A DNA stretch of 64,000 bases from Escherichia coli (GTDB lineage Bacteria > Pseudomonadota > Gammaproteobacteria > Enterobacterales > Enterobacteriaceae): assembly GCF_050920415.1 (NCBI RefSeq), contig NZ_CP169309.1; one strand, written 5' to 3'. Both the position numbers and the translations under genes were made by a program. Positions 14,842 to 38,475 of the stretch are shown here, one piece after another (position 1 is the first letter of the stretch; each line of letters starts with the position of its first letter). The notes under the pieces are model-generated. The model was not told the origin of the DNA. It saw only the letters and a program-made list of their open reading frames with translations, and searched no databases.

Positions 14842-15032
14842 TCCATTTCTGCAATGGTGACAAGTTAACCATTTACAAGGATGAAAAACAGTGGAAAACT
14901 ACGCAAAACCCAGATGATTTTATGATACTTTTATTCATAAACTATAAGATAAATAAACTAAATATTTATATTTCATTTAGTTACAAATGATACTCACATC
15001 CGATACGGTGAAAAACTTAAAAGGTAAATGTT

Positions 15033-16253: not shown

Positions 16254-16261
16254 TAGCGCAG

Positions 16262-16283
16262 ATGGCGGGTTCCTTCCCGCCAT
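16262..16283. terminator. hairpin between convergent genes (ATGGCGGG-loop-CCCGCCAT)
   Basis: Inverted repeat read directly in the 58 bp gap. Confidence 0.45.
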
Positions 16284-16311
16284 TAATTGTATGTATATCC
16301 TTAAGTATCTA

Positions 16312-17322: not shown

Positions 17323-17333
17323 TTTCTACTCCT

Positions 17334-18935
17334 TTATTCTTCTTCATCCCCGTTAAAGTTCGCCCGAGGAAGACAGGTGTATGCGCCCCAGTAATAAATT
17401 CCCAACGACATCAGCGCGACGACGATAGTATCCCACGGGTGCCCTATAATGCCGCTACCGCCAAAGCTACCCAGCCAGGAAAACAGCATAATCAGGGCAT
17501 AGAAGGCAATAAGCCACAATGAAGATTTAATCTGCTGCGCCAGGCTGACATGCTGAACAGGCACTTTCGACTTGCAACTCACGTAAACCACAAACATTAC
17601 GATTTGTAGCCCCAGCAGCCAGGAAAGCGTCCCCCAACCAGACCAAAAAACAATCAGTGCGGAAATCATAAAAGAGAGTGGGCCAAGCACCGCAAAACCA
17701 CGAACGCGGAACGGGCGCGGCATATCAGGTGCATTACGGCGCAGTCCTGCAGCTGTAACCGGCGCGATGGCGTAGCTCAGTACCAGAGCCGCAGAAACCA
17801 CGCTAATCAATTGCTCCCACGACGGGAACGGTAGCGTCCAGAAGATAGATAAACCAAACGTCAGCCACAGTGCCGGACGTGGAATACCTGACTCCTTATC
17901 GATATGAGTAAAGGTTTTAAAGAATGTCCCCGCCTTCGCCCAGCCATAGATCACACGCGGTGTCGCATTCATGTAAATATTGCCAGTGCCGCTGGGAGAC
18001 ACAATAGCATCACATACCACCATAAATGCCAGCCAGCCCATCCCGAGAGTAATGGCGATATCGCGATATGGCAGCGAATAGTTCTTACTGATCTCCGCCC
18101 AACCACCACTTAGCGATTCAGTTGGAATACTGCCCAAAAAGGCGACCTGCAACAGAACGTAGATGATGGTCGAGAGAATTACCGAGAGGATCAGCGCAAA
18201 TGGGATGGTACGTTGCGGATTTTGCGCCTCGCTGGCTACGGAGATAATCGGTGTCAGTCCAAGGTAAGCGAAGATAATCCCACCCGCGCTAATTGCCGCT
18301 TCCACTCCTGACATACCAAATGGAGCCATACCCTGTATATGCAGATTCTCCGGTTTGAAGAAGGCAAATAACGTTATTACCACCAGCAACGGCACCAGAA
18401 ACTTCAGCACGCTAATAAAATTGTTCGAGCGAGCGAAAGTTTTAACACTGTAGTAGTTCAGGGCAAAAAAGAAGCACAACAGTAAGAACTGCACCACCCA
18501 GCCTAACAGCGTCGGGTCACTACTCCCCGTCTGCGTCAGCGCAGGAAACCAGGCGGCGGCATATTGCCGTGCGGCTACAATCTCAATGGAGATCAGGCTG
18601 GAGAAGGCAATCAGGGTAATAAAACCCAGCAGATAGCCCATCAATTCGCCGTGCGAAAATACCGGGTAACGAATAATACCGCCCGCGCGGGGAAGCGCCG
18701 CCCCCAGTTCGCAGTAAATAATCCCCAGTAGCAGCACCGCAAAACCGCCAATAACCCAGGAAGCAATCCCTGCTGGGCCAGCGATCGATGCGACATGGCT
18801 GGCAGCAAACAGCCAGCCAGAACCGAAAATCGCCCCCAGACCAATAAAGGTCAAGTCGGTGAGCGTTAACTGCTTTTTAAACTTCCCCGACTCAACAACG
18901 ACGGTTTGCGTGCTTTGGGTAGAAGGAATTGTCAT
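17334..18935 (-). CDS. APC-superfamily amino-acid permease
   Basis: Polytopic membrane protein. The start was moved to the internal ATG at 18935 to remove a 40 bp overlap with the upstream gene. Confidence 0.8.
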   Translation of the reverse strand: MTIPSTQSTQTVVVESGKFKKQLTLTDLTFIGLGAIFGSGWLFAASHVASIAGPAGIASWVIGGFAVLLLGIIYCELGAALPRAGGIIRYPVFSHGELMGYLLGFITLIAFSSLISIEIVAARQYAAAWFPALTQTGSSDPTLLGWVVQFLLLCFFFALNYYSVKTFARSNNFISVLKFLVPLLVVITLFAFFKPENLHIQGMAPFGMSGVEAAISAGGIIFAYLGLTPIISVASEAQNPQRTIPFALILSVILSTIIYVLLQVAFLGSIPTESLSGGWAEISKNYSLPYRDIAITLGMGWLAFMVVCDAIVSPSGTGNIYMNATPRVIYGWAKAGTFFKTFTHIDKESGIPRPALWLTFGLSIFWTLPFPSWEQLISVVSAALVLSYAIAPVTAAGLRRNAPDMPRPFRVRGFAVLGPLSFMISALIVFWSGWGTLSWLLGLQIVMFVVYVSCKSKVPVQHVSLAQQIKSSLWLIAFYALIMLFSWLGSFGGSGIIGHPWDTIVVALMSLGIYYWGAYTCLPRANFNGDEEE

Positions 18936-18946
18936 AGTGATGCCCT

Positions 18947-20557
18947 TCAATGAGTCAACAAGGAGGAAATGGCTTCCCGGGTCCACTGGCCGTTAACCAA
19001 GCGCAGCAGGTTTAATGGATTACTGTCCTGCAGCGCAGGCGGTAATAGTGCAGCGGGTGCATTTTGCAGGCATACCGGGCGCAGAAAACGAGTAATGGCC
19101 AGCGTGCCTACGGACGTGCCGCGCGCGTCGGTGGTTGCCGGGAACGGACCACCGTGTACCATGGCATCGCAAACCTCGACGCCGGTGGGATAGCCATTGA
19201 ACAATACGCGTCCGGCTTTATCAGCCAACAATGGCAATAAACGACCAGCCAGTTGCCGGTCATCCTCATCCGCCTGAAGTGTGGCAGTAAGTTGCCCTTG
19301 CAGAGCGTTAATTACCTGCAACAACTCCGCTTCATCAGCGGCTTCAACCACAATCGCGAGCGGCCCGAACACTTCCTCCTGCAACAGAGGATCTTTTTCA
19401 AGTATGTTTGCCGCCTGAGCCTGATAGAGACGAGTTTCTGCTCGTCCGGCTTGATGATTATCGTCCCCCGCCAAACACCGAATAGTCGGATGTTCTGCCA
19501 GTTTCTCCACGCTGTGGCGATAGTGCTCAAGCGTGGAGGCGTTTAGCATGAGTTGCGGTGTGGCGGCATTCACTTTCTCAACCAGTTGCTGTAAAAAGTC
19601 CGCGTTTTTCTCCCCTTTCAGCAACACAATCAGGCCTGGTTTAGTGCAGAACTGTCCACATCCCAACGTGAACGACGCGACTAAATCGCGGGCCAGCGTA
19701 TCGGCACGTACTGATAGCGCCTGCGGCAGAATGAAAAAGGGATTGAGAGCCGACATTTCGGCAAAAACCGGTATCGGCTGTGGACGCTGTTGGGCCAAAC
19801 GAAAGAGCGCCATGCCACCACGTAATGAGCCGGTAAAACCCACCGCCTGAATTGCGGGATGTTTCACCAGTTCAGCACCGATATCAGTACCGAAAATCAT
19901 ATTGAATACGCCTGCGGGCATGGCGCATTTAGTCACGGCACGAGCGATCGCTGATGCGATAATTTCTGCCGTTGCCATATGCCCAGGATGCGCTTTCACA
20001 ACTACCGGGCATCCTGCAGCCAGTGCCGCTGCTGTATCACCACCGGCGATAGAAAAAGCGAGTGGAAAGTTGCTGGCACCAAATACCGCCACCGGCCCGA
20101 GAGCCGTTTTATACTGGCGCAAATCCGGTCGAGGCAGAGGCTGACGCTCCGGCAACGCAGTATCAATTCTTACCTCAAACAGATCGCCCCGACGTAATAA
20201 CCCGGCAAACATGCGCATCTGCCCGCTGGTTCTTGCCCGCTCTCCCTGTAAACGCGCCAGGGGTAACGCTGTCTCCTGATGTGCCGTAGCGAACAGTTCG
20301 TCGCCTGCTGCATCAAGTTCATCGGCGATGGTTTCTAAAAAATCGGCACGTTGCCCGGCATTGGTCAGTGAATAGCACACAAAAGCCTGCTGCGCCGCAA
20401 TAGCCGCCTGCTCGGCCTCCTCCACGGAGGCCGGGTAAAAACGTTGCCCGGTAGGTTCGCCATCCTGCGCTCGCAGGCTGACCAGCGACGGTTCACCGCT
20501 GGCAACACGTTGCCCGGCGATGAACTGTTGCCCGGTGAAAGGGAAAGTTTCAGTCAT
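18947..20557 (-). CDS. NAD(P)-dependent aldehyde dehydrogenase, 2,5-dioxovalerate (alpha-ketoglutarate semialdehyde) dehydrogenase-like
   Basis: 536 aa ALDH-superfamily protein with catalytic Cys context (GQFCTKPG) and a length typical of KGSADH. Confidence 0.8.
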   Translation of the reverse strand: MTETFPFTGQQFIAGQRVASGEPSLVSLRAQDGEPTGQRFYPASVEEAEQAAIAAQQAFVCYSLTNAGQRADFLETIADELDAAGDELFATAHQETALPLARLQGERARTSGQMRMFAGLLRRGDLFEVRIDTALPERQPLPRPDLRQYKTALGPVAVFGASNFPLAFSIAGGDTAAALAAGCPVVVKAHPGHMATAEIIASAIARAVTKCAMPAGVFNMIFGTDIGAELVKHPAIQAVGFTGSLRGGMALFRLAQQRPQPIPVFAEMSALNPFFILPQALSVRADTLARDLVASFTLGCGQFCTKPGLIVLLKGEKNADFLQQLVEKVNAATPQLMLNASTLEHYRHSVEKLAEHPTIRCLAGDDNHQAGRAETRLYQAQAANILEKDPLLQEEVFGPLAIVVEAADEAELLQVINALQGQLTATLQADEDDRQLAGRLLPLLADKAGRVLFNGYPTGVEVCDAMVHGGPFPATTDARGTSVGTLAITRFLRPVCLQNAPAALLPPALQDSNPLNLLRLVNGQWTREAISSLLTH

Positions 20558-20572
20558 AATCTCTCCCCCACC

Positions 20573-21514
20573 TCAAAGGCCCACGTCCGGCAGCGCAGGG
20601 CGAGTCGCCAGCGATTTCTCAACGATCGCCACAACCTGGGCACGCGTTTCGCCTTCCAGCGCCAGACGCGGCGGGCGAGTAACCTCACTGCCACGCCCCA
20701 ACAGGGCTTCACACAGCTTGATACACTGCACCAGGTCAGGGCGCGCATCGAGATGTAGCAGTGGCATAAACCAGCGATAGAGCGCCATAGCCTCGGCAAA
20801 ACGCTGTTGTTTTGCCAAACGGAACAACGTCTCACCTTCGCGTGGGAAGGCGTTTGACATCCCGGAAATCCAGCCTTCAGCGCCCACCGCAATGCTCTCA
20901 ACCACGACATCGTCCAGCCCGGCAAACAGCACAAAGCGATCGCCTACCGCATTGCGAAGATCGATAAAGCGCCGGGTATCACCAGAGGAATCTTTAAAGC
21001 AGACGATATTTTCGCAATCAGCTAGTGTTTCCAGGATATCAGGGGTGACATCGTTTTTATAAATCGGAGGGTTGTTATAGACCATGATCGGCAGGTCGGT
21101 CGCCATTGCCACACTGCGGAAGTGCGCTGCAGTTTCATGAGGCTTAGATGAGTAAACCAAAGCAGGCATCACCATAACGCCATCAACACCGACCTTCTCG
21201 GCCTCTTTTGCCATCGTCCGGGCAAAGGCAGTGGTGAACTCAGCAACCCCGGCAATCACCGGAATTTTTCCGCCAGCAGCATCTTTCGCTACTTCGATGA
21301 TTTGCAGTTTTTCCTGAGTGGTAAGTGACGTGTTTTCTCCAACGCTGCCGCACACTACCAGGCCAGAAACCCCATCTTTAACCAAGTTTTTCATCACCGC
21401 ATGTGTGGCATCCAAATCAAGTGAGTAATCACTACGGAACTGAGTGCTAACCGCCGGAAAAACGCCACTCCAGTTAATCGCTTTATTGCTCATCTTTGGT
21501 TTCCTTATTGTCAA
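20573..21514 (-). CDS. DapA/DHDPS-family lyase, candidate delta1-pyrroline-4-hydroxy-2-carboxylate deaminase
   Basis: 313 aa ORF of the dihydrodipicolinate synthase/N-acetylneuraminate lyase family; the specific function is inferred from the neighbouring epimerase, oxidase and KGSADH genes. Confidence 0.75.
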   Translation of the reverse strand: MTIRKPKMSNKAINWSGVFPAVSTQFRSDYSLDLDATHAVMKNLVKDGVSGLVVCGSVGENTSLTTQEKLQIIEVAKDAAGGKIPVIAGVAEFTTAFARTMAKEAEKVGVDGVMVMPALVYSSKPHETAAHFRSVAMATDLPIMVYNNPPIYKNDVTPDILETLADCENIVCFKDSSGDTRRFIDLRNAVGDRFVLFAGLDDVVVESIAVGAEGWISGMSNAFPREGETLFRLAKQQRFAEAMALYRWFMPLLHLDARPDLVQCIKLCEALLGRGSEVTRPPRLALEGETRAQVVAIVEKSLATRPALPDVGL

Positions 21515-21644
21515 TCTGTTGCGTCAATGTGAATTAAAAGTGAATCTTCATTAACAGATTGACCTCTCCTTGCGCTGGCGGCTTGTCGATTTTCTTTCCC
21601 CAGGATGACGAAATTAGCACAATGCCCAGTTGTGATTTGTCGTG

Positions 21645-22472
21645 TTACCCCATCAACGTCATCCGAAAATCACGCGGAGTTGAGCCTGTCATCGCCTTAA
21701 ATTGACGGCTGAACGCACTATGGTCGGTATAACCGCACTGCAAAGCGATATCGGTAATCGGCGTAGTTCCGGCAAGTAACTCGGTGGCCTTTTCCAGTCG
21801 AACTTTGTGGATCATCTGGCGAGGCGTCAGGTGAAAAATCCGCTTACAGTAGCGTTCAATTTGCGCCACAGACATTCCGCTCATTTCAGTCAACTCTTCC
21901 ATAGAGATCGCACGGTAGTAGTGATTGCGAATGTGCTCATCGATGATCGCCAGGCGTTGCCAGGCTGGATGACGCGCATGTGCTTCCTGGAGATCATGTG
22001 AGATCCCCGCCATTCCGATCACACGCCCCTGCATATCGCGCAGTGCCAGTTTCTGCGTCAGACACCAGCCGCGTTCGCGACCGTTATAGAGATGCATCTC
22101 TAGTTGATCACGTAACGCAACCCCTTCGCGTAGCACACGCAGATCCTGTTCGGTATATCCTCGTCCCAATGCAGAAGGGAAAACATCTGCCGATGTCTTC
22201 CCCAGTAGCGATGTCACATTTTTAAACCCGCAGCGTCGCGCCAACGTCATATTGACTAACAGATAACGGGCCTGCATATCCTTAATAAAAAACACCACAT
22301 TAGGAATGGCGTTGAGAAGTGGCGCAATCAGCGCCAGTGCATTTAACAACGCCTGAATATTTTGTGGACGCTGCCGCGCCAGCCCCTCGCAAATCTGACT
22401 AAGTTCATCAACGGCCAGCGCAGTTTCTTCACAAGGGGAAAACTCAAAAGTCTGATGACATATGCTGGACAT
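21645..22472 (-). CDS. AraC-family transcriptional regulator
   Basis: 275 aa ORF with a C-terminal AraC-type double helix-turn-helix; divergent from the epimerase operon. Confidence 0.85.
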   Translation of the reverse strand: MSSICHQTFEFSPCEETALAVDELSQICEGLARQRPQNIQALLNALALIAPLLNAIPNVVFFIKDMQARYLLVNMTLARRCGFKNVTSLLGKTSADVFPSALGRGYTEQDLRVLREGVALRDQLEMHLYNGRERGWCLTQKLALRDMQGRVIGMAGISHDLQEAHARHPAWQRLAIIDEHIRNHYYRAISMEELTEMSGMSVAQIERYCKRIFHLTPRQMIHKVRLEKATELLAGTTPITDIALQCGYTDHSAFSRQFKAMTGSTPRDFRMTLMG

Positions 22473-22783
22473 AGTTGTTCCTCATAGCGATTGAGGATGA
22501 ATGTTTATTAACCTTTGATTAACATGACAAGTACTGAAAGTGCATTTTGCGATCCTTCCGTGTATTTCCACTTTCCGTTGCTCTCACTACTGACGAACGC
22601 TTGTTCCTGGTCTAACACATCACTAACAAAATGATTAATATTAAAAAAACATGACCACTCCTGGTGTCGCGAAATAATTCACTGTGCTGATTTCGTCATT
22701 TCCCTTGCAGAAACCCTTCAAGCGATAAAGTTGCAATTACGCCAGCATTTAGAAACATTTTGTTAACCACATGGAGCCAGAGC

Positions 22784-23731
22784 ATGCATGTTCCTCACCA
22801 AATCACTGAACTCAGGGCTATCGACTCCCATACCGGAGGCGAGCCGACCCGGTTGATTATTGATGGCTTTCCCGATCTCGGTAGCGGCAGCATGGCCGAA
22901 CGGCGCGAACGTTTTACCCGGGAATTTGACTGTTGGCGCAAAGCCATAATTCTTGAGCCACGCGGCAACGACGTGCTGGTCGGCGCGCTACTGTGTGAGC
23001 CGCTTTCCCCTCATGCCACGGCGGGTGTCATCTTTTTCAATAATGCCGGATACCTGAATATGTGTGGGCACGGCACTATCGGGCTTGTTGCCTCACTGGC
23101 CTGGTTGGGTCGTATTAAACCGGGCGTTCATCGCATTGAAACCCCTGTCGGAGATGTAAACGCCACATTGCATGATGATGGCAGTGTGTCAGTTGAAAAT
23201 GTTCCGGCCTGGCGCTGGCAAAAACAGGTAAGTGTGGAAACAGCGGTGGGTACAGTTACAGGAGATATCGCCTGGGGTGGTAACTGGTTTTTTCTTATTA
23301 ATGATCATCCATTTGATATTGTGCCGGAACAAATCCCGCAGTTAACTGAATACGCCTGGGCGGTACGGGAAGGGCTCGATAATGCGGGGATCGTCGGTGA
23401 AAACGGTGGCATTATCGATCATATCGAACTTTTTGCCGATGACGATCAGGCGGATAGCCGTAGCTTCGTCCTTTGCCCAGGTAAAGCGTGGGATCGTTCT
23501 CCCTGTGGCACAGGCACCAGCGCCAAGCTGGCCTGTCTGGCAGAAGACGGAAAACTCGCCCCCGGCGATAGCTGGCGCCAGGCCAGTATTATTGGTAGCC
23601 AGTTTACGGCTCACTATACCCGCCATGGCGAGAAGATTATCCCCACCATTCGTGGAGAAGCCTGGGTATGCGGCGACAATCGCCTGCTCCTTAATCCGGA
23701 CGATCCCTTCTGCTGGGGGATTAGCCTGTGA
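22784..23731 (+). CDS. proline racemase family enzyme, 4-hydroxyproline 2-epimerase-like
   Basis: Two catalytic Cys motifs (MCGHG and SPCGTGTSA) typical of the proline racemase / 4-Hyp epimerase family; GGAG Shine-Dalgarno before the ATG at 22784. Confidence 0.85.
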
Positions 23732-24837
23732 ACAGCACGGAGGTCATTGTCATCGGCGCAGGCATCATCGGGGCCTCCTGCGCATGGCAACTGGCAAAAC
23801 GTGGTGTGAGAGTCACGCTAATTGACAACGGCCGAGCCGGAGCGACAGCTGCAGGAATGGGGCATCTGGTCTGTATGGATGATGATCCCGCAGAACTGAC
23901 GCTCTCTGCCTGGTCGCTGGAACTGTGGCGCACGTTGACGCCTCAGTTACCGGAAAGCTGTGCCTGGTGCGGCTGTGGCACATTGTGGCTGGCGGAAACA
24001 CCAGAAGAACTGGAAATTGCCCGAGAGAAGCAGCGACGTCTGGCATCGCATGAGGTCAACAGCGAAATGCAAAGCGCTGCACAATTGGCTGAGCGGGAAG
24101 TTATGCTACGCCCGGGGTTATCCGGCGGGTTATGGGTGCCGGGCGATGGCATCGTCTACGCCCCAAACGTTGCCCGTTGGTTTATTGCCAATGCAGGCGA
24201 TAAGCTGACACATCTGGTTGATCCGGCCATTCGTCTGGAAGAACCTACAGTGACATTACAGAGCGGTCGCCAATTACGCGCCGATGCGATCGTCGTCGCC
24301 TGTGGTCTGGGGGCCAATACGTTACTGGGGGAGCCATGGCTGCGCGCGAAGAAAGGCCAACTTGCGATTACCGATCGCTATGGTCCACTAGTCAATCACC
24401 AACTGGTTGAACTTGGCTACGGCGCCAGTGCTCACGGCAGCGGCACGTCAGTGGCCTTTAATGTGCAGCCTCGTCCCACCGGACAACTGCTGATTGGCTC
24501 TTCACGTCAGTTCGATAACGAGGATCGCGAACTGGACCTTCCACTCCTGGCCGCGATGCTGTCCAGAGCGCAACACTTTCTGCCGTCTCTGGCAACGCTC
24601 AATATTATTCGTTGCTGGAGCGGTTTTCGCGCCGCCTCGCAGGATGGTAATCCCCTTCTCGGCCCGCATCCTTCCCGTGCTGGCGTCTGGCTGGCTCTTG
24701 GTCATGAAGGGCTTGGAGTGACTACTGCCCCCGCCAGCGCGTCGCTGTTAGTCGCACAGTTGCTGGGTGAACGCAGCCTCGTATCTCCTGCCCCCTGGCT
24801 ACCCGCAAGACTTATCTCCCTGGAGGCCAGCGCATGA
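23728..24837 (+). CDS. FAD-dependent oxidoreductase (DadA/HcnC/OoxB-like), candidate D-hydroxyproline dehydrogenase beta subunit
   Basis: N-terminal FAD dinucleotide-binding motif [14 protein letters not shown]; the GTG start overlaps the upstream stop, suggesting translational coupling. Confidence 0.8.
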
Positions 24838-25097
24838 GTGGCACCATTAGAATTTTTATTGCCGGACAGCCCTGGTTTGTCCCGACGGGTATTAGCGTAG
24901 CGGCGGCACTGGCCTTAACTGATAACCCCATTACGCGCCTTTCGGTGAGCGGGCAACCACGTACGCCCTTCTGCGGCATGGGCGTTTGCCAGGAGTGTCG
25001 GGTGAGCGTTAATGGTCGTCGGGTACCCGGTTGTCAGACCCTTTGCCAGCCAGACATGCAGATTGAAAGGAGCGGATATGCAGACCTTACAGTGTGA
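24834..25097 (+). CDS. small [2Fe-2S]-binding subunit (HcnA / sarcosine-oxidase-alpha N-terminus-like)
   Basis: 87 aa ORF with a Cys cluster (CGMGVCQEC...GC); ATGA overlap with the upstream gene. Confidence 0.65.
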   Translation: MSGTIRIFIAGQPWFVPTGISVAAALALTDNPITRLSVSGQPRTPFCGMGVCQECRVSVNGRRVPGCQTLCQPDMQIERSGYADLTV

Positions 25098-26343
25098 CAT
25101 TTTAATTCTCGGTGCAGGCCCGGCGGGGCTATCAGCGGCTCTGGCCGCAGCAAAGTGCGATAAGCAGGTCATCATCCTTGATGATAATCCGCTTCCTGGC
25201 GGTCAAATCTGGCGCGATGGTCCACAAAGTCAGCTTCCTCCACTGGCCCGCCATTACCGTGATGCCGTTGCCAACGAATCGCGGATTCGTGTGCTCAACG
25301 GAGCGAGGTTAATCGCCCGCCGCAGCGAAAATTGTGTACTGTTCGAAACTGCAGAAGACTACGGCACAGTAAGCTGGAATAAGCTGATTCTCTGCTGCGG
25401 CGCACGTGAACTTGCATTACCGTTTCCAGGCTGGACGCTGCCCGGTGTCAGTGGCGCGGGTGGGCTACAGGCACAAATGAAACAGGGGCTGCACATGGCA
25501 AATCAAAAAGTGGTTATTGCCGGAAGTGGGCCACTATTACTGGCCGTTGCTGACACCGTTCGCCGTGCCGGAGGCGAAGTGGTGGCGATTGTGGAACAAG
25601 CCCCACGCGCAGCGCTATTGCGCTTTGGCTTCGGACTATGGCGTTGGCCGGGTAAGCTGCGCCAACTGGCGACACTATTTCCTCGTCGTTATCTCAGTGC
25701 AAGCCAGGTTATCGCTGCACACGGCGACGCCACATTGCGTGCTGTCACCCTCCGACACAATGGTAGGGAAATCACACTGCCATGCGACAAATTAGCTATT
25801 GGCTATGGTCTAGTGCCTAATCTTGAACCTGGGTTGTTCTTCAGTTGTGCCATCAGCAATGATGCCGTGCAGGTGGATGAACTGCAGCGAACCTCGGTTA
25901 AAAACATCTATGCAGCCGGTGAATGTACTGGATTTGGTGGCAGTGAACTGGCGCTGATAGAAGGTGAAATAGCCGGACTTTGTGCGGCCGATCGCGCCCA
26001 TGAAACAAAGTTTCTGCAACAAAAACGCACCAGGTGGCAGCGCTTCGCCCTCGCGCTTCATAAAACCTTTGCCCTGCCCGAAAGTCTCAAGCGCGTTGCG
26101 ACACCAGAAACGCTGCTTTGCCGCTGCGAAGACATTCGCTGTGGCGATGTAGAGCAAGCACAAAGCTGGCTGCAGGCCAAATTAACGACCCGCTGCGGCA
26201 TGGGAGCCTGTCAGGGGAGAACCTGCGCCGCTACCGCACGATGGTTGTACGGCTGGCCATTACTGGAACCGCGAGCCCCCCTTTCCCCCTCTCGCAGCGA
26301 AACGTTAATTGCCCTGGCGCAACAACCACCTTCGCCACATTAA
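25078..26343 (+). CDS. FAD/NAD(P)-binding oxidoreductase with C-terminal BFD-like [2Fe-2S] domain (HcnB/OoxA-like), candidate D-hydroxyproline dehydrogenase alpha subunit
   Basis: N-terminal DILILGAGPAGLSAA motif and a C-terminal Cys cluster (CRCEDIRCGD...CGMGACQGRTC); strong AAGGAG Shine-Dalgarno before the ATG at 25078. Confidence 0.8.
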   Translation: MQTLQCDILILGAGPAGLSAALAAAKCDKQVIILDDNPLPGGQIWRDGPQSQLPPLARHYRDAVANESRIRVLNGARLIARRSENCVLFETAEDYGTVSWNKLILCCGARELALPFPGWTLPGVSGAGGLQAQMKQGLHMANQKVVIAGSGPLLLAVADTVRRAGGEVVAIVEQAPRAALLRFGFGLWRWPGKLRQLATLFPRRYLSASQVIAAHGDATLRAVTLRHNGREITLPCDKLAIGYGLVPNLEPGLFFSCAISNDAVQVDELQRTSVKNIYAAGECTGFGGSELALIEGEIAGLCAADRAHETKFLQQKRTRWQRFALALHKTFALPESLKRVATPETLLCRCEDIRCGDVEQAQSWLQAKLTTRCGMGACQGRTCAATARWLYGWPLLEPRAPLSPSRSETLIALAQQPPSPH

Positions 26344-26370
26344 ATCCCTGATAATAATTTGGCGTTAAGG

Positions 26371-26435
26371 GCTTATCTGGTCTGGTAAATCTTACAAATT
26401 CAATATATTGCAGAATCTATCCAGGCCAGATAAGC
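26371..26435. repeat. 15 bp imperfect inverted repeat (GCTTATCTGGTCTGG ... CCAGGCCAGATAAGC) at the right boundary of the tsr-btsT island
   Basis: Read directly; one mismatch between arms, about 35 nt spacer. Confidence 0.4.
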
Positions 26436-26535
26436 GTAGCGCAGCTGGCAATTATTGAGCCGTAAACGAGGAATCTACCCAGAAAAAATTTCGTGATCTC
26501 AATCACATATTAGCTCGATGAATAATTCTTGCCCA

Positions 26536-26584
26536 ACCGCTCACCGCCATTCCTGACCGCTTACGTCCCAAATATAACCACTCA
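26536..26584 (+). promoter_or_regulatory. candidate BtsR (YehT) response-regulator binding site: three direct repeats ACC(G/A)CT(C/T)A
   Basis: ACCGCTCA, ACCGCTTA and ACCACTCA with 12 and 13 bp spacers, 136-184 bp upstream of btsT; matches the recalled LytTR-type motif reported for the yjiY promoter. Confidence 0.45.
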
Positions 26585-26719
26585 GTTATTTACCTTACTT
26601 TACGCGCGCGTAACTCTGGCAACATCACTGCAGGATAGCGGTCAATTTACCTCCTCAAACGCAACGCAAACCTAGAACGGCTTCGGCCAACTATTAATCA
26701 ATACATGCCAGGTTTTACT

Positions 26720-28870
26720 ATGGATACTAAAAAGATATTCAAGCACATACCCTGGGTGATTCTTGGAATCATCGGTGCATTCTGCCTCGCGGTAGTTGCA
26801 TTACGTCGGGGGGAGCACGTCAGCGCCCTGTGGATCGTGGTCGCCTCTGTGTCAGTGTATCTGGTGGCTTATCGCTACTACAGTCTGTACATCGCCCAGA
26901 AAGTGATGAAACTCGACCCCACGCGCGCGACGCCTGCGGTTATTAACAACGACGGTCTGAACTATGTTCCGACCAACCGTTACGTGTTGTTTGGTCACCA
27001 CTTCGCTGCTATCGCCGGTGCGGGTCCGCTGGTTGGTCCGGTTCTCGCCGCGCAGATGGGTTACCTGCCTGGCACACTGTGGCTGCTGGCGGGGGTAGTG
27101 CTGGCCGGTGCGGTACAGGACTTTATGGTGCTGTTTATCTCTTCTCGCCGTAACGGCGCATCTCTCGGTGAGATGATCAAAGAAGAGATGGGGCCAGTAC
27201 CGGGGACTATCGCGCTGTTTGGCTGTTTCTTAATCATGATCATCATCCTCGCCGTTCTGGCGCTGATTGTGGTTAAAGCCCTGGCCGAAAGTCCGTGGGG
27301 TGTCTTCACCGTTTGCTCAACCGTACCAATTGCGCTGTTTATGGGTATCTACATGCGCTTTATCCGTCCTGGGCGTGTAGGTGAAGTCTCTGTTATTGGT
27401 ATCGTGCTGCTGGTTGCCTCTATCTACTTCGGTGGCGTAATTGCTCACGATCCGTACTGGGGTCCGGCACTGACCTTTAAAGACACCACCATTACCTTCG
27501 CACTGATTGGCTATGCGTTTGTTTCCGCACTGCTGCCGGTGTGGCTGATCCTCGCACCGCGCGACTATCTGGCAACCTTCCTGAAAATCGGCGTTATCGT
27601 CGGCCTGGCGCTGGGTATCGTGGTGCTGAACCCGGAACTGAAAATGCCTGCGATGACCCAGTACATTGACGGTACTGGCCCGCTGTGGAAAGGCGCTCTG
27701 TTCCCGTTCCTGTTCATCACCATCGCCTGTGGTGCGGTATCTGGCTTCCACGCGCTGATCTCTTCCGGTACGACGCCGAAACTGCTGGCTAACGAAACCG
27801 ACGCGCGTTTCATTGGCTACGGCGCAATGCTGATGGAGTCCTTCGTGGCGATTATGGCGCTGGTTGCTGCGTCCATCATCGAACCGGGTCTTTACTTCGC
27901 GATGAATACCCCGCCTGCGGGCCTTGGCATCACCATGCCTAACCTGCATGAAATGGGTGGCGAGAACGCGCCGATCATCATGGCACAACTGAAAGACGTT
28001 ACCGCACACGCGGCAGCGACTGTCAGCTCCTGGGGCTTCGTGATTTCGCCAGAGCAGATCCTGCAAACCGCGAAAGACATTGGTGAGCCTTCTGTCCTGA
28101 ACCGTGCAGGTGGTGCGCCGACGCTGGCGGTAGGTATCGCTCACGTGTTCCACAAAGTGCTGCCGATGGCTGACATGGGCTTCTGGTATCACTTCGGCAT
28201 TCTGTTCGAAGCCCTGTTCATCCTGACCGCGCTGGATGCGGGTACCCGTTCTGGCCGCTTTATGCTGCAAGACCTGCTGGGTAACTTCATCCCGTTCCTG
28301 AAAAAAACCGACTCTCTGGTTGCCGGTATCATCGGTACTGCGGGCTGTGTGGGTCTGTGGGGCTACCTGCTGTATCAGGGCGTGGTCGATCCGCTGGGCG
28401 GCGTTAAGAGCCTGTGGCCGCTGTTCGGTATCTCCAACCAGATGCTGGCAGCCGTAGCGCTGGTACTGGGCACCGTTGTGCTGATTAAGATGAAGCGCAC
28501 CCAATACATCTGGGTGACTGTTGTTCCGGCTGTATGGCTGCTTATCTGCACCACCTGGGCGCTGGGCCTGAAACTGTTCAGCACCAACCCGCAGATGGAA
28601 GGCTTCTTCTACATGGCAAGCCAGTACAAAGAGAAGATTGCTAACGGTACTGACCTGACGGCACAGCAGATTGCCAACATGAACCACATCGTTGTGAACA
28701 ACTACACCAACGCAGGCCTGAGTATTCTGTTCCTGATTGTGGTGTACAGCATCATCTTCTACGGTTTCAAAACCTGGCTGAAGGTGCGTAACAGCGACAA
28801 ACGTACTGACAAAGAAACACCGTACGTTCCAATCCCGGAAGGCGGCGTGAAGATTTCTTCGCACCACTAA
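26720..28870 (+). CDS. btsT: pyruvate/H+ symporter BtsT (CstA family)
   Basis: The translation from the ATG at 26720 ([19 protein letters not shown]...) is recognised as YjiY/BtsT; large polytopic CstA-type protein. Confidence 0.93.
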
Positions 28871-30171: not shown

Positions 30172-30204
30172 TTTTAGATGATGGCCGCCATGTGGCGGCC
30201 TGAA

Positions 30205-30507
30205 TTATTTTTTATTCTGATCGCGCAGCATCGCTTCACGTAAAATTGCGTTCAGGCGAGTTTGATAGCCTTTACCTGGTCGCTTCAACCATTCCATCAC
30301 ATCAGCATCAATACGCACCGAAGCCTGAGTTTTCAATGGCCGATAAAACTTACCGCGTTCTGCGTTAGACCATTGCTCATCGCTGGAAGGTGGGATATCA
30401 CTGTAATCAATATCTTCGTCGGATTTATTCGCCAGCGCCTTCAGTTCGGCCTCATGCTGCACATCGAGTGAAGAGGAGGTCCCTCGTTTATGTTTAACCA
30501 TGCTCAT
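30205..30507 (-). CDS. BrnA-like antitoxin (DUF4415/COG3514)
   Basis: 100 aa ORF; the C-terminal pattern YQTRLNAILREAML resembles BrnA-family antitoxins; its start overlaps the stop of a BrnT-like remnant. Confidence 0.6.
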   Translation of the reverse strand: MSMVKHKRGTSSSLDVQHEAELKALANKSDEDIDYSDIPPSSDEQWSNAERGKFYRPLKTQASVRIDADVMEWLKRPGKGYQTRLNAILREAMLRDQNKK

Positions 30508-30623
30508 AGCGGCTCCGTTCGTTGTGGCTCATCAAACACTAACACCGCATCTTCAAAGCGGATGCCATGTTTCACCCGATTACTTTTGGCCTTGTTTGCA
30601 TCCCATTCAAACTCCATTGGCAT
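30504..30623 (-). pseudogene. truncated BrnT-like toxin (DUF497) remnant, 39 codons
   Basis: My own translation of the minus strand gives MPMEFEWDANKAKSNRVKHGIRFEDAVLVFDEPQRTEPL*, which matches only the conserved N-terminus (FEWDxxKxxxNxxKHG..F..A..VF.DP) of roughly 90 aa BrnT toxins. Confidence 0.45.
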
Positions 30624-30819
30624 AGTTGCCATCCCCAATTGTATATACAAAAATGTATCTACAATCATTCTGCAATTATAGCGTTGATGTTGGAAATAGC
30701 ATCACGTTTTGGATAATCAACCATGAAATTGACAATGAGTGAGTTGGACTTGATTCATCCAATAGAATTTCTCGCCTGACATGGCACACTAAACACCTCG
30801 CTGTCGTTAAGGGATTACC

Positions 30820-31986
30820 GTGAAAAACTACAAAGTTATTACTCCGCTTTTTCCTACCTATGCGCAAGTTAAGGCTATGATGAAAGCCGTCTCAGGCTAT
30901 TCCCTGAAAGCGGTACGCAATATGATTACCGCCATTCACGAGCAAACCGGTACGCCGCAAAAACCCGTTGACTGGTCGGAACCTGACCTGTGGATCAGCG
31001 AACGCTTAACGGGTGAAGATGCCGACATCGCCCGTCGTATTTGGGATACCGATAATCACATATTGAACCCGCGCCACAGCTACGGCTGCTACTTATTTCT
31101 CAACTATCCTCAGTTTGAGCTGATGGAAAGCACGCCAGATGATACCTGGCAGCCCACCTCGCGCGGGCAAAAATTCCTGCAAGATGACGAAAAAACGCTG
31201 CGTTCACTGGACGACCAGGAAGGCATTCTGCAACTGCTTGAGCTGCTGGCTGGCCGGGAAATGTCGCGCCGCGCCGATTTATTGCCGGAATGGCAGGCCT
31301 TTTTGCATCAGCATTCGAAATTCGCGTCAGCAAGTTCAGTGAAAAGCACGCTCTACTCCCGTCTCTATAACCTTATCGACCGTGACATGGTTAACCGTGA
31401 AGGCATGAGCTATCGCATCACCGATACCGGGCGCGCCTGGCTTGGAAAAGCGTTGCCTGCACGAAAAAGCGATCCGCGTAAAGAGCTGTTGGAAGCGGTA
31501 AAACGCTATAACGAACAGCAAAAAGAGCTGCTGCGCGAACAAATCAGCACGATGAACCCGTACAAATTTGAGCAACTGGTTGGTCAATTACTGGAAGCAA
31601 TGGGCTACGAACAGGTTGAAGTGACCAAAGCCTCAGGCGACAAAGGTGTGGACGTGATTGGTCAGGTGCAGGTCGGCATCACCACTATTACCGAAGTGGT
31701 GCAGGTCAAAAGAATGCTGAACACTATCACTCGCCCGTATATCGACCAGTTGCGTGGGGCGTTGCCTTACCACAAAGCCATTCGCGGTACGCTCATCACC
31801 ACCGGGAAATTTGCGGCGAAATGTGCAGAAGCGGCGCTCTTTCCGGGTGCCGCGCCCATTACGCTTATCGACGGCGATCGTTTACTGGAACTGTTAATCG
31901 AAAATAACGTCGGCATTCGCCGCAGCAATGCAGTGGAATTGCTGGATGTAGATTTGCAGTTGTTTGATGAGCTGGAGATGGATTAA
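30820..31986 (+). CDS. Mrr-family (Mrr_cat, PD-(D/E)xK) restriction endonuclease with extended N-terminal region
   Basis: The C-terminal 150 aa carry an Mrr catalytic-domain pattern (GDKGVDVIG...EVVQVKR...ITTGKF); 388 aa in total; GTG start, exact start uncertain. Confidence 0.72.
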   Translation: MKNYKVITPLFPTYAQVKAMMKAVSGYSLKAVRNMITAIHEQTGTPQKPVDWSEPDLWISERLTGEDADIARRIWDTDNHILNPRHSYGCYLFLNYPQFELMESTPDDTWQPTSRGQKFLQDDEKTLRSLDDQEGILQLLELLAGREMSRRADLLPEWQAFLHQHSKFASASSVKSTLYSRLYNLIDRDMVNREGMSYRITDTGRAWLGKALPARKSDPRKELLEAVKRYNEQQKELLREQISTMNPYKFEQLVGQLLEAMGYEQVEVTKASGDKGVDVIGQVQVGITTITEVVQVKRMLNTITRPYIDQLRGALPYHKAIRGTLITTGKFAAKCAEAALFPGAAPITLIDGDRLLELLIENNVGIRRSNAVELLDVDLQLFDELEMD

Positions 31987-32049
31987 AGGGCGAAATCCGC
32001 CGCCTCAACCATTACAATAGCGACCCAATTTATCTGAACAGAGTTCATC

Positions 32050-33669
32050 ATGGCCAAAGCACCAACTAAAAAAGCCAAAGCAAAAAAAGGCTTTGAAGAA
32101 ACATTATGGGATACCGCAAACCAGCTTCGCGGTAGCGTTGAATCCTCCGAATACAAGCACGTGGTGTTGAGCCTCGTGTTCCTGAAATTCATCAGCGATA
32201 AGTTTGAAGCACGCCGCAAAAAAATGATTGCCGATGGGCAAGCAGACTTCCTTGAGATGGAAGTGTTCTACCAGCAGGACAACATTTTCTACCTGCCGGA
32301 AGAGGCGCGCTGGTCATTTATCAAACAAAATGCCAAACAGGACGATATTGCGGTCCGTATTGACACCGCCCTCTCGACCATTGAGAAACGTAACCCAACG
32401 CTGAAAGGCGCGCTGCCAGACAACTACTTCAGCCGTCAGAATCTGGAAACCAAAAAACTGGCGTCACTGATTGATACCATCGACAACATCGAAACGCTGG
32501 CACACGAAACTGACGTTGAAACGTTATCGAAAGAAGACCTGGTCGGACGCGTTTACGAATACTTCCTCGGTAAGTTTGCCGCAACTGAAGGCAAAGGCGG
32601 TGGTGAGTTCTACACGCCTAAATGTGTGGTTACGCTGTTAACTGAAATGCTCGAACCCTTTCAGGGCAAAATTTATGACCCGTGCTGCGGCTCGGCAGGG
32701 ATGTTCGTGCAGTCGGTGAAGTTTGTCGAGAGCCATCAGGGTAAAAGTCGTGATATCGCGCTGTATGGTCAGGAACTGACAGCCACGACGTATAAACTGG
32801 CAAAAATGAACCTCGCTATTCGCGGTCTTTCAGCTAACCTCGGCGAACGACCGGCAAACACTTTCTTTAGCGACCAGCACCCGGACCTGAAAGCTGACTA
32901 CATTCTGGCGAACCCGCCGTTCAACCTGAAAGACTGGCGCAATGAAGCCGAATTAACCAAAGACCCACGTTTTGCTGGGTATCGTATGCCGCCAACCGGT
33001 AACGCCAACTACGGCTGGATTTTGCATATGCTCTCCAAGCTGTCGGCTAACGGCACAGCAGGTTTTGTACTGGCAAACGGTTCGATGAGTTCTAACACCA
33101 GCGGCGAAGGCGAGATCCGTGCACAGATGATCGAAAATGATCTGATCGACTGCATGATCGCCCTACCTGGACAGTTGTTTTACACCACGCAGATCCCGGT
33201 GTGTTTATGGTTTATGACCAAATCGAAGGCTGCCGACCCGGCCAAAGGTTATCGTGATCGTCAGGGCGAGACGCTGTTTATTGATGCGCGTAACCTCGGC
33301 ACCATGATTAGCCGCACAACTAAAGAGTTAACAGCGGAAGATATTGCCACAATCGCCGATACTTACCATGCCTGGCGCAGCACGCCGGAAGAACTGGCTG
33401 CACGGATTGCGCGTGGTGACAGCAAGCTGGAAAAATATGAAGACCAGGCTGGCTTCTGCAAAGTTGCGACCCTGCAAGACATTAAAGATAACGGCTACGT
33501 TCTGACACCGGGCCGCTATGTAGGTGCAGCCGAGCAGGAAGAGGACGGCGTGGCATTTGAGACCAAAATGCGTGAATTGTCGAAGACGTTGTTTGAGCAG
33601 ATGAAGCAGGCGGAAGAACTGGATCGTGCGATTCGCCAGAATCTGGAGGCGCTGGGTTATGGGGAGTAA
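32050..33669 (+). CDS. hsdM: Type I restriction-modification system N6-adenine DNA methyltransferase subunit
   Basis: 539 aa with an HsdM N-terminal domain, AdoMet motif DPCCGSAGMF and catalytic motif NPPF. Confidence 0.92.
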   Translation: MAKAPTKKAKAKKGFEETLWDTANQLRGSVESSEYKHVVLSLVFLKFISDKFEARRKKMIADGQADFLEMEVFYQQDNIFYLPEEARWSFIKQNAKQDDIAVRIDTALSTIEKRNPTLKGALPDNYFSRQNLETKKLASLIDTIDNIETLAHETDVETLSKEDLVGRVYEYFLGKFAATEGKGGGEFYTPKCVVTLLTEMLEPFQGKIYDPCCGSAGMFVQSVKFVESHQGKSRDIALYGQELTATTYKLAKMNLAIRGLSANLGERPANTFFSDQHPDLKADYILANPPFNLKDWRNEAELTKDPRFAGYRMPPTGNANYGWILHMLSKLSANGTAGFVLANGSMSSNTSGEGEIRAQMIENDLIDCMIALPGQLFYTTQIPVCLWFMTKSKAADPAKGYRDRQGETLFIDARNLGTMISRTTKELTAEDIATIADTYHAWRSTPEELAARIARGDSKLEKYEDQAGFCKVATLQDIKDNGYVLTPGRYVGAAEQEEDGVAFETKMRELSKTLFEQMKQAEELDRAIRQNLEALGYGE

Positions 33670-34975
33670 GTGGGAAACAGTTAGACTTGGTGATTTAACA
33701 AAGTGGTCATCAGGTGGAACACCTAATAAATCGGAGGATTCATATTGGAATGGTACTATTCCGTGGATTAGCGCGTCCTCTATGGAAGGTCATTTATATA
33801 GCGATTCAAAGCTAAAAATAACTGAAGATGGCTTAATAAATGGCTCTCGACTCGCCCCTGCTAATAGCATTCTTCTTTTAGTAAGAGGCAGTATTCTTCA
33901 TCAAAAAATTCAAGTAGGTTTGGCTACAAAGGCTGTTGCATTTAATCAAGATGTAAAATGTCTCATAGTCAATAATGATATGATTGATCCTTGGTATCTT
34001 TTGCTATGGTTTAAAGCAAAAGAACAAGATCTACTAAAAATAGTAGAAAGCACTGGGATAGGCGCAGGGAAGCTTGACACTAAATTATTAATGGATTACC
34101 CAGTTGAAATTCCACCAAAAGAGATTAAAGAATATATCCGTTTTTTGGGGAAAGCGATTTTTGATAAAATAACGCTCAACGAAAATATAAACTATAATTT
34201 GGAAAAAATGTCCCAAACCTTGTTCAAATCCTGGTTTGTGGATTTTGATCCGGTGATTGATAACGCTCTGGATGTCGGAAATCAAATCCCGGAAGCCCTG
34301 CAAGCTCGTGCCGAATTGCGTCAAAAAGTACGTAATAGTGCAGATTTCAAACCACTTCCGACGGAAATCCGCTCGCTTTTCCCAAGTGAATTTGAAGAAA
34401 CGGAGTTAGGTTGGGTACCAAAAGGTTGGGAAATTGGAAAACTTCAAGACTTACTTATTTTACAAAGAGGATTTGATCTTCCTTCTACCCAAAGAAATAT
34501 CGGTTTACACCCAATAATAGCTGCTAGTGGCTATAATGGCACACATGACATCGCAATGGTGAAAGCCCCTGGGATTGTTACTGGCCGCTCTGGTGTATTA
34601 GGTAATGTTTTCCTAATCCTTGAAGACTTCTGGCCTCTGAATACAACGTTGTGGGTAAAAGAGCTAAAACATGCTACACCATGTTACGGATATGAGTTAC
34701 TTAAAATGATAGATTTCTCTTCATTTAATGGCGGTTCAGCTGTTCCAACATTAAACCGTAATCATATTCACAATTTGGATTACTTGCTTCCACCAAGAAA
34801 TTTAATTGAGAAATTTGAGTTATTTTCTATGTCGTTATATAGACAAGTTCACGAATTCAAAAAACAAGCCCAAACCCTAACAGCCCTCCGCGACACCCTG
34901 CTCCCGAAACTCATCTCCGGCGAGCTATCCCTGGAAGATCTTCCGGATCTCAGCACCGATACAGAAGCTGCATAA
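33659..34975 (+). CDS. hsdS: Type I restriction-modification specificity subunit with two target recognition domains
   Basis: The ATG overlaps the hsdM stop by 11 bp; the region is AT-rich; two variable regions are separated by a conserved central segment and followed by a conserved C-terminal region. Confidence 0.88.
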   Translation: MGSKWETVRLGDLTKWSSGGTPNKSEDSYWNGTIPWISASSMEGHLYSDSKLKITEDGLINGSRLAPANSILLLVRGSILHQKIQVGLATKAVAFNQDVKCLIVNNDMIDPWYLLLWFKAKEQDLLKIVESTGIGAGKLDTKLLMDYPVEIPPKEIKEYIRFLGKAIFDKITLNENINYNLEKMSQTLFKSWFVDFDPVIDNALDVGNQIPEALQARAELRQKVRNSADFKPLPTEIRSLFPSEFEETELGWVPKGWEIGKLQDLLILQRGFDLPSTQRNIGLHPIIAASGYNGTHDIAMVKAPGIVTGRSGVLGNVFLILEDFWPLNTTLWVKELKHATPCYGYELLKMIDFSSFNGGSAVPTLNRNHIHNLDYLLPPRNLIEKFELFSMSLYRQVHEFKKQAQTLTALRDTLLPKLISGELSLEDLPDLSTDTEAA

Positions 34976-34983
34976 CGCATTTT

Positions 34984-35003
34984 GCCCCTGTAAAATCAGG
35001 GGC
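34984..35003 (+). terminator. hairpin (GCCCCTG-TAAAAT-CAGGGGC) followed by TTTCT between hsdS and hsdR
   Basis: Read directly in the 94 bp gap; it may be a partial terminator or attenuator separating the hsdMS and hsdR transcription units. Confidence 0.3.
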
Positions 35004-35069
35004 TTTCTGGTAAGGTTTTCTACTGATACGGGAATGCTTACCAGAAATTAGCCAGGGTTGGAGCGCGAT

Positions 35070-38469: not shown

Positions 38470-38475
38470 GTATTT

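What the first reader, a model, noticed from the sequence alone, without database searches (positions are those of the whole stretch)
26536..26584. Triple ACC(G/A)CT(C/T)A direct repeat upstream of btsT
This matches the motif I recall for the LytS/LytTR-type regulator BtsR (YehT) at the yjiY promoter. Its preservation next to a newly inserted island suggests the pyruvate-responsive control of btsT is intact even though the upstream neighbour changed.
Basis: partly seen in the sequence, partly recalled or inferred. Interest (0 to 1): 0.3.

Follow-up and report, generated by a model that had tools for sequence, protein, structure and literature searches.

The report
Known BtsR operator of btsT promoter
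The three short repeats are real and are the already-described docking site of the pyruvate-responsive regulator BtsR in front of the E. coli pyruvate importer gene btsT, so this is an ordinary, well-conserved promoter element.

Summary
Three ACCRCTYA boxes lie on the + strand: M1 26536-26543, M2 26556-26563, M3 26577-26584. Spacers are 12 and 13 bp, and the boxes sit 184-136 nt upstream of the btsT ATG (26720). About 6e-8 such triples are expected by chance per window.

M2-13bp-M3 is identical to the K-12 yjiY/btsT promoter pair that the literature describes as the YehT/BtsR site (a direct repeat with a 13-bp spacer). The encoded BtsT matches K-12 at 714/716 residues. btsSR is present in 5425/5426 complete E. 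coli genomes.

Three refinements:
- The published site is a pair. M1 is a third upstream box that reads GCCGCTCA in K-12 but is a perfect match here and in at least 2059/5426 E. coli genomes. It is also conserved in other genera, so it is probably functional.
- A CRP-like site (26492-26507) starts exactly 64 nt upstream of M2 in all 15 enterobacterial promoters examined. A conserved extended -10-like TGnCAnnAT lies at 26617-26625.
- Only the hydroxyproline module of the upstream island is rare (34/5426 genomes). Its right junction abuts the CRP site and leaves the control block intact.

The parts
26492..26507 (+). CRP-like site CGTGATCTCAATCACA (TGTGA-N6-TCACA with one mismatch)
   Evidence: Pattern search. 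The site starts exactly 64 nt upstream of M2 in all 15 enterobacterial btsT promoters examined, and both half-sites are invariant in alignment A2. btsT promoter activity is lost in a K-12 crp mutant (PMC7730263; PMC5936718). The site itself is not mapped in any text I could read.
26536..26543 (+). Box M1, ACCGCTCA: distal third BtsR-type box, 12-bp spacer to M2
   Evidence: Sequence. It is a perfect consensus match here and in all island-bearing E. coli alleles, but reads GCCGCTCA in K-12 and CFT073. The core CC.CT is invariant in 13 promoters from at least 5 genera that were selected without reference to M1. A third box with at most 1 mismatch is present in 16/21 CstA-family-linked loci. Whether it binds BtsR is an inference.
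26556..26563 (+). Box M2, ACCGCTTA: upstream half of the published YehT/BtsR direct repeat
   Evidence: Identical to K-12. It lies inside the 'yjiY YehT bs' oligo (PMC4847170). The 13-bp spacer to M3 matches the published spacing (PMC4222967).
26577..26584 (+). Box M3, ACCACTCA: promoter-proximal half of the published direct repeat
   Evidence: Identical to K-12 and invariant in all nine intact E. coli alleles examined.
26617..26625 (+). Extended -10-like element TGGCAACAT (TGnCAnnAT): inferred core promoter
   Evidence: T162 G163 C165 A166 A169 T170 are invariant columns in the 13-sequence, multi-genus alignment. No canonical -35/-10 pair is found by the consensus scan, as expected for an activator-dependent promoter. 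The transcription start site was not determined here, so this is an inference.
26720..28870 (+). btsT (yjiY), pyruvate/H+ symporter of the CstA family: the regulated gene
   Evidence: RefSeq annotation of a matching record (100% identical over the 421-nt query), Pfam CstA hit at E=6e-243, and 714/716 identity to K-12 BtsT.

Best explanation
The repeats are the operator of the btsT promoter for the LytTR-type response regulator BtsR (YehT).

Proposed sequence of events:
1. Extracellular pyruvate is sensed by the histidine kinase BtsS (established in the literature).
2. Activated BtsR binds the direct repeats (established for K-12). M2-13 bp-M3 is the documented pair. M1 is probably a third, cooperative site on the same face of the helix, because the starts are 20 and 21 bp apart (inferred).
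3. Bound BtsR activates a weak sigma-70 promoter that lacks a good -35 and carries an extended -10-like TGGCAACAT at 26617-26625 (inferred).
4. cAMP-CRP acts as co-activator (established for K-12), most likely from the site at 26492-26507, which keeps a fixed distance from the boxes (site assignment inferred).
5. The product, BtsT, imports pyruvate (established).

If transcription starts about 7 nt after the -10 element, the box centres lie near -52, -72 and -92 and CRP lies near -132 (inferred).

The upstream island ends immediately 5' of the CRP site and leaves this block untouched. BtsS/BtsR- and CRP-dependent control of btsT is therefore expected to operate in this strain as it does in K-12.
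For: - Exact boxes and spacing. Chance expectation is about 6e-8 triples per window.
- M2 and M3 are orthologous to and identical with the K-12 yjiY promoter.
- K-12 'yjiY YehT bs' oligo: PMC4847170. YehT binds a direct repeat with a 13-bp spacer: PMC4222967.
- LytTR regulators generally bind 8-13-bp imperfect direct repeats about 12 bp apart, and the spacing is critical: PMC4064291.
- BtsS/BtsR has btsT as its single target and is modulated by cAMP-CRP, LeuO and CsrA: PMC5936718. crp dependence of the btsT promoter: PMC7730263.
- The K-12 promoter reporter is activated in other genera whose btsT promoters carry the motifs: PMC5552118.
- Independent comparative support comes from loci retrieved only by exact M2-N13-M3. 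Of these, 21 sit directly upstream of a CstA-family gene.
- In the enterobacterial subset, the CRP-like site is always 64 nt upstream of M2.
- In the same alignment, the CRP half-sites, the M1 core and TGnCAnnAT are the conserved patches in otherwise free-varying sequence.
- btsSR is present in 5425/5426 E. coli genomes. BtsT is 714/716 identical to K-12.
Against: - There is no binding or expression data for this allele.
- The primary paper defining the site (Kraxenberger 2012, PMC3416263) is not held. I could not check the footprint limits, the transcription start, or whether M1 was tested.
- The inclusion of M1 in the SPR oligo may only reflect length-matching to the YpdB oligo.
- btsS/btsR lie outside the window, so their presence in the source genome is inferred from species-wide prevalence.
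- The CRP half-site reads CGTGA rather than TGTGA. However, the same variant occurs in the Lelliottia sp. WAP21 locus, an Enterobacter MAG and Enterobacteriaceae UBA3516.
- M2 and M3 invariance in the cross-genus set is by construction of the search pattern. Only M1, CRP and the -10 conservation count as independent evidence.
Confidence: 0.93

Rival explanations
1. Only the M2-M3 pair is the functional BtsR operator. M1 is a non-functional relic or fortuitous near-repeat, so the 'triple' is really a pair plus a bystander.
For: The literature I could read speaks of a direct repeat with one 13-bp spacer (PMC4222967), and LytTR regulators classically use two repeats (PMC4064291). M1 is imperfect in K-12 (GCCGCTCA), where the system works. 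Five of 21 CstA-family-linked loci (three Shewanella, two Gilliamella) lack a recognisable third box.
Against: The M1 core CC.CT is invariant, and positions 1 and 8 are nearly so, in 13 promoters of at least 5 genera, while the flanking 28-bp and 12-bp segments vary freely. A box with at most 1 mismatch sits at 12-13 bp in 16/21 loci, against about 2e-4 expected per locus for a perfect box. Some loci carry four boxes (UBA3516, Aliivibrio). The starts are phased at about two helical turns.
Confidence: 0.25
2. The boxes are bound by the paralogous LytTR regulator YpdB/PyrR rather than by BtsR.
For: YpdA/YpdB influences btsT expression in K-12 (PMC5936718).
Against: The YpdB motif is GGCATTTCAT, and no copy with at most 1 mismatch lies near btsT. 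PyjiY DNA was used as the non-binding control for YpdB-D53E in SPR ('PyjiY DNA, no binding', PMC4847170).
Confidence: 0.02
3. The repeats are a chance or repeat-element artefact, for example part of a REP/tandem array, with no regulatory role.
For: Many hits of the same pattern elsewhere in the genome collection are 7-bp or 21-22-bp tandem arrays (Bacteroidia MAGs, Sporosarcina).
Against: Here the spacers are unrelated to each other and vary between genera, while the boxes stay fixed. The boxes sit at a fixed position relative to the CRP site and to btsT. The chance expectation is about 6e-8.
Confidence: 0.01

Closest known systems
YehT/BtsR binding site in the E. coli K-12 yjiY (btsT) promoter (Kraxenberger et al. 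2012, J Bacteriol 194:4272)
   Same: It occupies the same orthologous position upstream of the same gene. M2 (ACCGCTTA) and M3 (ACCACTCA) are identical and share the 13-bp spacer. The distance to the ATG is the same (-164 and -143). A CRP-type site lies 64 nt upstream of M2 in both.
   Different: M1 is ACCGCTCA here and GCCGCTCA in K-12. The M1-M2 spacer and the 28 bp between CRP and M1 are unrelated in sequence to K-12. The first base of the CRP site is C rather than T. The upstream neighbour is a 16-kb catabolic island instead of tsr.
YpdB (PyrR) operator of yhjX: two GGCATTTCAT direct repeats with sequential, cooperative 'AB-BA' binding (PMC4847170)
   Same: It belongs to a paralogous LytTR regulator of the same pyruvate network. 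It uses the same direct-repeat logic and probably a similar cooperative binding mode.
   Different: The box sequence is different. It has two boxes rather than three. PyjiY DNA is not bound by YpdB.
AgrA / VirR / PlnC-type LytTR operators (8-13-bp imperfect direct repeats about 12 bp apart; PMC4064291)
   Same: The repeat length (8 bp core), the direct orientation, the 12-13-bp spacers and the position just upstream of a weak promoter all match.
   Different: The consensus sequence is different. There is a three-box array plus a fixed distal CRP site. The host is Gram-negative and the signal is metabolic (pyruvate) rather than quorum sensing.

Membership tests
BtsR (YehT) operator of the btsT/yjiY promoter | Direct repeat of the 8-bp box (recalled consensus ACC[G/A]CT[C/T]A) separated by a 13-bp spacer | tested here: met
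   M2 at 26556-26563 and M3 at 26577-26584 have a 13-bp spacer. The spacer length is confirmed by PMC4222967. The consensus string itself comes from memory because the primary paper is not held.
BtsR (YehT) operator of the btsT/yjiY promoter | Orthologous to the K-12 sequence used as the 'yjiY YehT binding site' | tested here: met
   The oligo in PMC4847170 Table 1 equals K-12 L002 5470-5413. It aligns without gaps to window 26528-26588, with M2 and M3 identical.
BtsR (YehT) operator of the btsT/yjiY promoter | Lies upstream of btsT, the sole documented BtsR target | tested here: met
   The btsT ATG is at 26720. The protein is CstA family and 714/716 identical to K-12 BtsT. Single-target statement: PMC5936718.
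BtsR (YehT) operator of the btsT/yjiY promoter | Cognate btsS/btsR genes present in the same genome | tested here: inconclusive
   They are not in the window. btsSR is found in 5425/5426 complete E. coli genomes, so their presence is almost certain, but it was not shown for the source genome.
BtsR (YehT) operator of the btsT/yjiY promoter | BtsR binding in vitro, and BtsS/BtsR- and pyruvate-dependent transcription | not testable with these tools
   This needs EMSA, SPR or footprinting and reporter assays. It is published for K-12 and Salmonella only (PMC5431176, PMC9504724).
LytTR-type response-regulator operator | 8-13-bp imperfect direct repeats about 12 bp apart | tested here: met
   The boxes are 8 bp with spacers of 12 and 13 bp. 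The property is stated in PMC4064291.
LytTR-type response-regulator operator | Repeats positioned immediately upstream of a weak, activator-dependent promoter | tested here: inconclusive
   There is no canonical sigma-70 match in 26300-26760. A conserved extended -10-like TGnCAnnAT lies 33 nt downstream of M3. The transcription start site is not known to me.
cAMP-CRP co-activated promoter | TGTGA-N6-TCACA site at a conserved position, with crp dependence | tested here: met
   CGTGATCTCAATCACA at 26492-26507. The 64-nt offset to M2 is fixed in 15/15 promoters and both half-sites are invariant. crp dependence is published for the K-12 promoter (PMC7730263). The site-to-function link itself was not tested.

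The most novel reading that the evidence does not exclude
M1 is a genuine third BtsR site. Its first base is a natural polymorphism that splits E. coli into two promoter classes:
- perfect ACCGCTCA, linked to island-type upstream flanks, in at least 2059 genomes;
- GCCGCTCA, linked to the tsr-adjacent K-12-type flank, in at least 2632 genomes.

The homology break between the two allele classes falls exactly at that base. On this reading the three-perfect-box arrangement shared with other genera is ancestral. The K-12 reference promoter would then be a derived, possibly weaker or differently cooperative variant, so strains like this one would have a different pyruvate induction threshold or a different degree of cell-to-cell heterogeneity in btsT expression.
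Probability: 0.3. Interest if true: 0.3.

Novelty: already known. Interest (0 to 1): 0.15.

Why it matters
It confirms that the pyruvate-scavenging circuit (BtsS/BtsR to btsT, with CRP) is structurally intact in a strain whose tsr-btsT interval has been remodelled by a 16-kb catabolic island. This is useful for annotation but not surprising.

The comparative by-products are modestly useful to people working on LytTR regulators:
- The control region is a rigid CRP-28 bp-M1-12/13 bp-M2-13 bp-M3-33 bp-extended -10 scaffold, conserved across enterobacterial genera. Only the functional patches are conserved within it.
- The K-12 reference carries an imperfect distal box that roughly half of E. coli shares, while the other sizeable class carries a perfect one.

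Tried and rejected
1. Primary paper (PMC3416263) and two companion J Bacteriol papers (PMC4010973, PMC3562098): none is held. I could not read the footprint limits, the transcription start, or any test of M1.
2. Literature searches for a text quoting the consensus or a mapped start site. These yielded only the 13-bp-spacer statement and the oligo sequence.
3. Sigma-54 promoter. TGGCAACATCACTGCA at 26617-26632 fits the TGGCAC-N5-TTGC spacing. I rejected it because the essential GG is GT in three genera and the -12 GC is not conserved.
4. TAACTC at 26611-26616 as the -10 element. It is not conserved in the Enterobacter or Citrobacter sequences, so TGnCAnnAT is preferred.
5. Consensus promoter/terminator scan of 26300-26760: nothing found.
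6. YpdB motif: absent near btsT.
7. Third-box frequency in pattern hits without a CstA gene, intended as a control. It was confounded by 7-bp and 21-22-bp tandem arrays, so I used the analytic expectation instead.
8. A Markov Monte Carlo timed out and was replaced by an analytic estimate.
9. The megablast break at 26537 first looked like the island junction. The alignment shows it is an allele boundary. The island junction lies at about 26491.

Full report
**Observation**

The window is E. coli. Over 26340-26760 it is 100% identical to NZ_CP169399.1, where the gene starting at window 26720 is annotated btsT.

Reading 26200-27000 shows three boxes on the + strand:
- M1, ACCGCTCA, at 26536-26543
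- M2, ACCGCTTA, at 26556-26563
- M3, ACCACTCA, at 26577-26584

The spacers are 12 and 13 bp, and the boxes lie 184, 164 and 143 nt upstream of the ATG. The degenerate 8-mer occurs 12 times in the window against 5.7 expected, and only these three are clustered. A first-order Markov estimate gives about 6e-8 triples with such spacing per window.

**Identity with the known site**

K-12 carries, at the orthologous place, GCCGCTCA-12-ACCGCTTA-13-ACCACTCA.

Two papers tie this to YehT/BtsR:
- The oligonucleotide that the Jung laboratory calls 'yjiY YehT bs' (PMC4847170, Table 1) is this K-12 stretch.
- PMC4222967 states that YehT binds a direct repeat of its sequence separated by a 13-bp spacer, citing Kraxenberger 2012.

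M2 and M3 are therefore the documented pair, and they are identical here.

Supporting facts:
- BtsT is 714/716 identical to K-12 and belongs to the CstA family.
- btsS-btsR lie elsewhere on the chromosome and are present in 5425/5426 complete E. coli genomes.
- The regulatory logic is published: pyruvate, then BtsS, then BtsR, then btsT as the single target, with cAMP-CRP, LeuO and CsrA as further layers (PMC5936718, PMC7730263, PMC5431176, PMC10653868).
- The paralogue YpdB does not bind PyjiY DNA, and its motif is absent here.

The primary paper is not held. The consensus string itself, and whether M1 was tested, remain unverified.

**The third box**

I aligned ten E. coli alleles. M2 and M3 are invariant in every intact promoter.

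M1 differs by context:
- It is ACCGCTCA in every allele that has an island upstream. These are the hpa cluster in KSC64, CFSAN061770 and CFSAN027343; a short D-amino-acid module in MDR_56; and the composite island in E308 and this window.
- It is GCCGCTCA where tsr is the direct neighbour (K-12, CFT073, M25631H).

Sequence identity between the two classes stops exactly at base 1 of M1. The 28 bp between there and the CRP-type site are unrelated in sequence, yet both classes have a CRP-type site at the same distance.

Species-wide, the island-type flank with perfect M1 is found in 2059/5426 genomes and the K-12-type flank in 2632/5426.

**Other genera**

The pattern says nothing about M1, CRP or the gene downstream.

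Of these loci, 21 have a CstA-family gene immediately downstream:
- BtsT orthologues in Enterobacter, Citrobacter, Lelliottia, two further Escherichia species and Gilliamella.
- CstA-family genes of about 480 aa in Shewanella, Aliivibrio, Pseudovibrio and a Desulfobacteraceae MAG.

A third box with at most 1 mismatch lies 12-13 bp upstream of M2 in 16 of the 21, and it is perfect in 12. Two loci have four boxes.

In all 15 enterobacterial promoters examined, NGTGA-N6-TCACN starts exactly 64 nt upstream of M2.

In the 13-sequence alignment, the invariant patches outside M2 and M3 are the CRP half-sites, the M1 core CC.CT, and TGnCAnnAT 33 nt downstream of M3.

I read this as a rigid scaffold: CRP-28-M1-12/13-M2-13-M3-33-extended -10. 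That M1 is functional is an inference from conservation, not a demonstration.

**Mechanism**

- Shown in the literature for K-12: BtsR binds the repeat, and btsT transcription needs BtsS/BtsR, pyruvate and CRP.
- Shown here: every sequence element is present and correctly spaced in this strain.
- Inferred: the boxes are phased at about two helical turns, so BtsR protomers sit on one face of the DNA, probably binding cooperatively as described for YpdB (PMC4847170). The core promoter is the conserved extended -10-like TGGCAACAT (26617-26625) with no good -35. A start near 26632 would put the boxes near -52, -72 and -92 and CRP near -132.

**The island**

tsr lies at 8700-10364 on the - strand.
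- Homology to the K-12 tsr upstream region ends near 10432.
- Module A runs to the amino-acid deaminase gene, ending at about 16253. It comprises a MurR/RpiR regulator, a Na+/solute symporter, RidA, a D-aminoacylase and the amino-acid deaminase.
- Module B runs from about 16254 to 26491. It comprises an Ldh-family oxidoreductase, an APC permease, an aldehyde dehydrogenase, a DHDPS-family enzyme, an AraC regulator, 4-hydroxyproline epimerase and FAD/2Fe-2S oxidoreductases.

Module A alone abuts btsT in MDR_56 and in E. whittamii. Module B is rare: 34/5426 genomes carry its junction. Its right end abuts the first base of the CRP site, where a terminator hairpin plus TTAT sits in MDR_56 and hpa strains.

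The interval is thus a recombination and indel hotspot. The CRP-to-ATG block is kept in all of these arrangements. The one exception seen is strain ABWA45, in which an IS3-family element separates the boxes from btsT.

**Verdict**

This is a real, non-random, correctly interpreted and already known regulatory element. Interest is low.

The only mildly new points are the conserved third box and its A/G polymorphism, the fixed CRP offset, and the likely extended -10.

Noticed in passing
window 26492-26507: A CRP-like site, CGTGATCTCAATCACA, starts exactly 64 nt upstream of M2. The offset is identical in 15/15 enterobacterial btsT promoters, even though the intervening 28 bp are unrelated between alleles and genera.
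   Followed up: yes
window 26617-26625: TGGCAACAT matches a TGnCAnnAT patch that is invariant across at least 5 genera. It is probably an extended -10 promoter element. The overlapping sigma-54-like TGGCA-N7-TGCA is not conserved elsewhere.
   Followed up: partly
window ~10433-26491: A composite island of about 16 kb lies between tsr and btsT. It has a D-amino-acid/RidA module (to ~16253) and a 4-hydroxyproline catabolism module (~16254-26491). The second module's junction is found in only 34/5426 complete E. coli genomes. The first module alone abuts btsT in strain MDR_56 and in E. whittamii. GC content is 0.47-0.59, not atypical.
   Followed up: partly
L004 (E. coli ABWA45) 1702-2909, insertion point equivalent to window ~26637: An IS3-family element is inserted in the btsT leader, so the sequence upstream of the equivalent of window ~26637 is IS DNA and no ACCRCTYA box lies within 520 bp of the btsT ATG. 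This is a natural promoter disruption that should make btsT unresponsive to BtsR.
   Followed up: no
L003 (KSC64) ~3215-3340; also L007, L008: hpa-island strains carry a ~123-bp insertion in the btsT 5' UTR. It has internal inverted repeats (GTGAATCCCCGGGAGCTTACA...AGTAAGTGACAGGGGTGAAC) and resembles an ERIC/IRU element from memory. It moves the boxes from -184/-143 to -307/-266 relative to the ATG.
   Followed up: no
L013, L015, L045, L071, L086, L096, L104, L117, L119: The same M2-13-M3 pair, often with a third or fourth box, sits 54-93 nt upstream of ~480-aa CstA-family genes in Aliivibrio, Shewanella, Pseudovibrio and a Desulfobacteraceae MAG. These are possibly BtsU-type pyruvate transporters. 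The BtsR box therefore appears conserved well beyond Enterobacteriaceae.
   Followed up: partly
L058, L066, L067, L094, L115, L116, L126, L127 (Sporosarcina spp.): Dispersed arrays of 21-22-bp tandem repeats with a conserved TTATCACCRCTYA core occur at several loci per genome. They hit the BtsR pattern, but their nature is unknown (LytTR sites, iterons or a repeat family).
   Followed up: no
window 26637-26644 vs 26554-26561: AGCGGTCA in the btsT leader is the exact reverse complement of TGACCGCT, which overlaps M2. It is an inverted partial box (6/8 to the consensus on the - strand), seen in E. coli alleles only, and its significance is unknown.
   Followed up: no
window 26371-26436: An imperfect inverted repeat, GCTTATCTGGTCTGG ... 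CCAGGCCAGATAAGC, lies just after the last island gene (stop at 26343). It could be a REP-like or terminator-like hairpin, and no T-run terminator was called by the scan.
   Followed up: no
L044, L089 (Gilliamella MAGs): The BtsT homologue is 87-88% identical to the E. coli protein, which seemed high to me for an Orbaceae MAG (not checked against other genes). Upstream there is a two-box site in AT-rich DNA. This may reflect horizontal transfer or a binning artefact.
   Followed up: no
window ~30200-46000 (from L001 annotation): Downstream of btsT-yjiX-yjiA lies the variable 'immigration control' region. It contains a BrnA antitoxin gene with a truncated (pseudogene) BrnT toxin gene, a restriction endonuclease, a type I R-M system (hsdM/S/R), symE and a GmrSD-family enzyme.
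   Followed up: no
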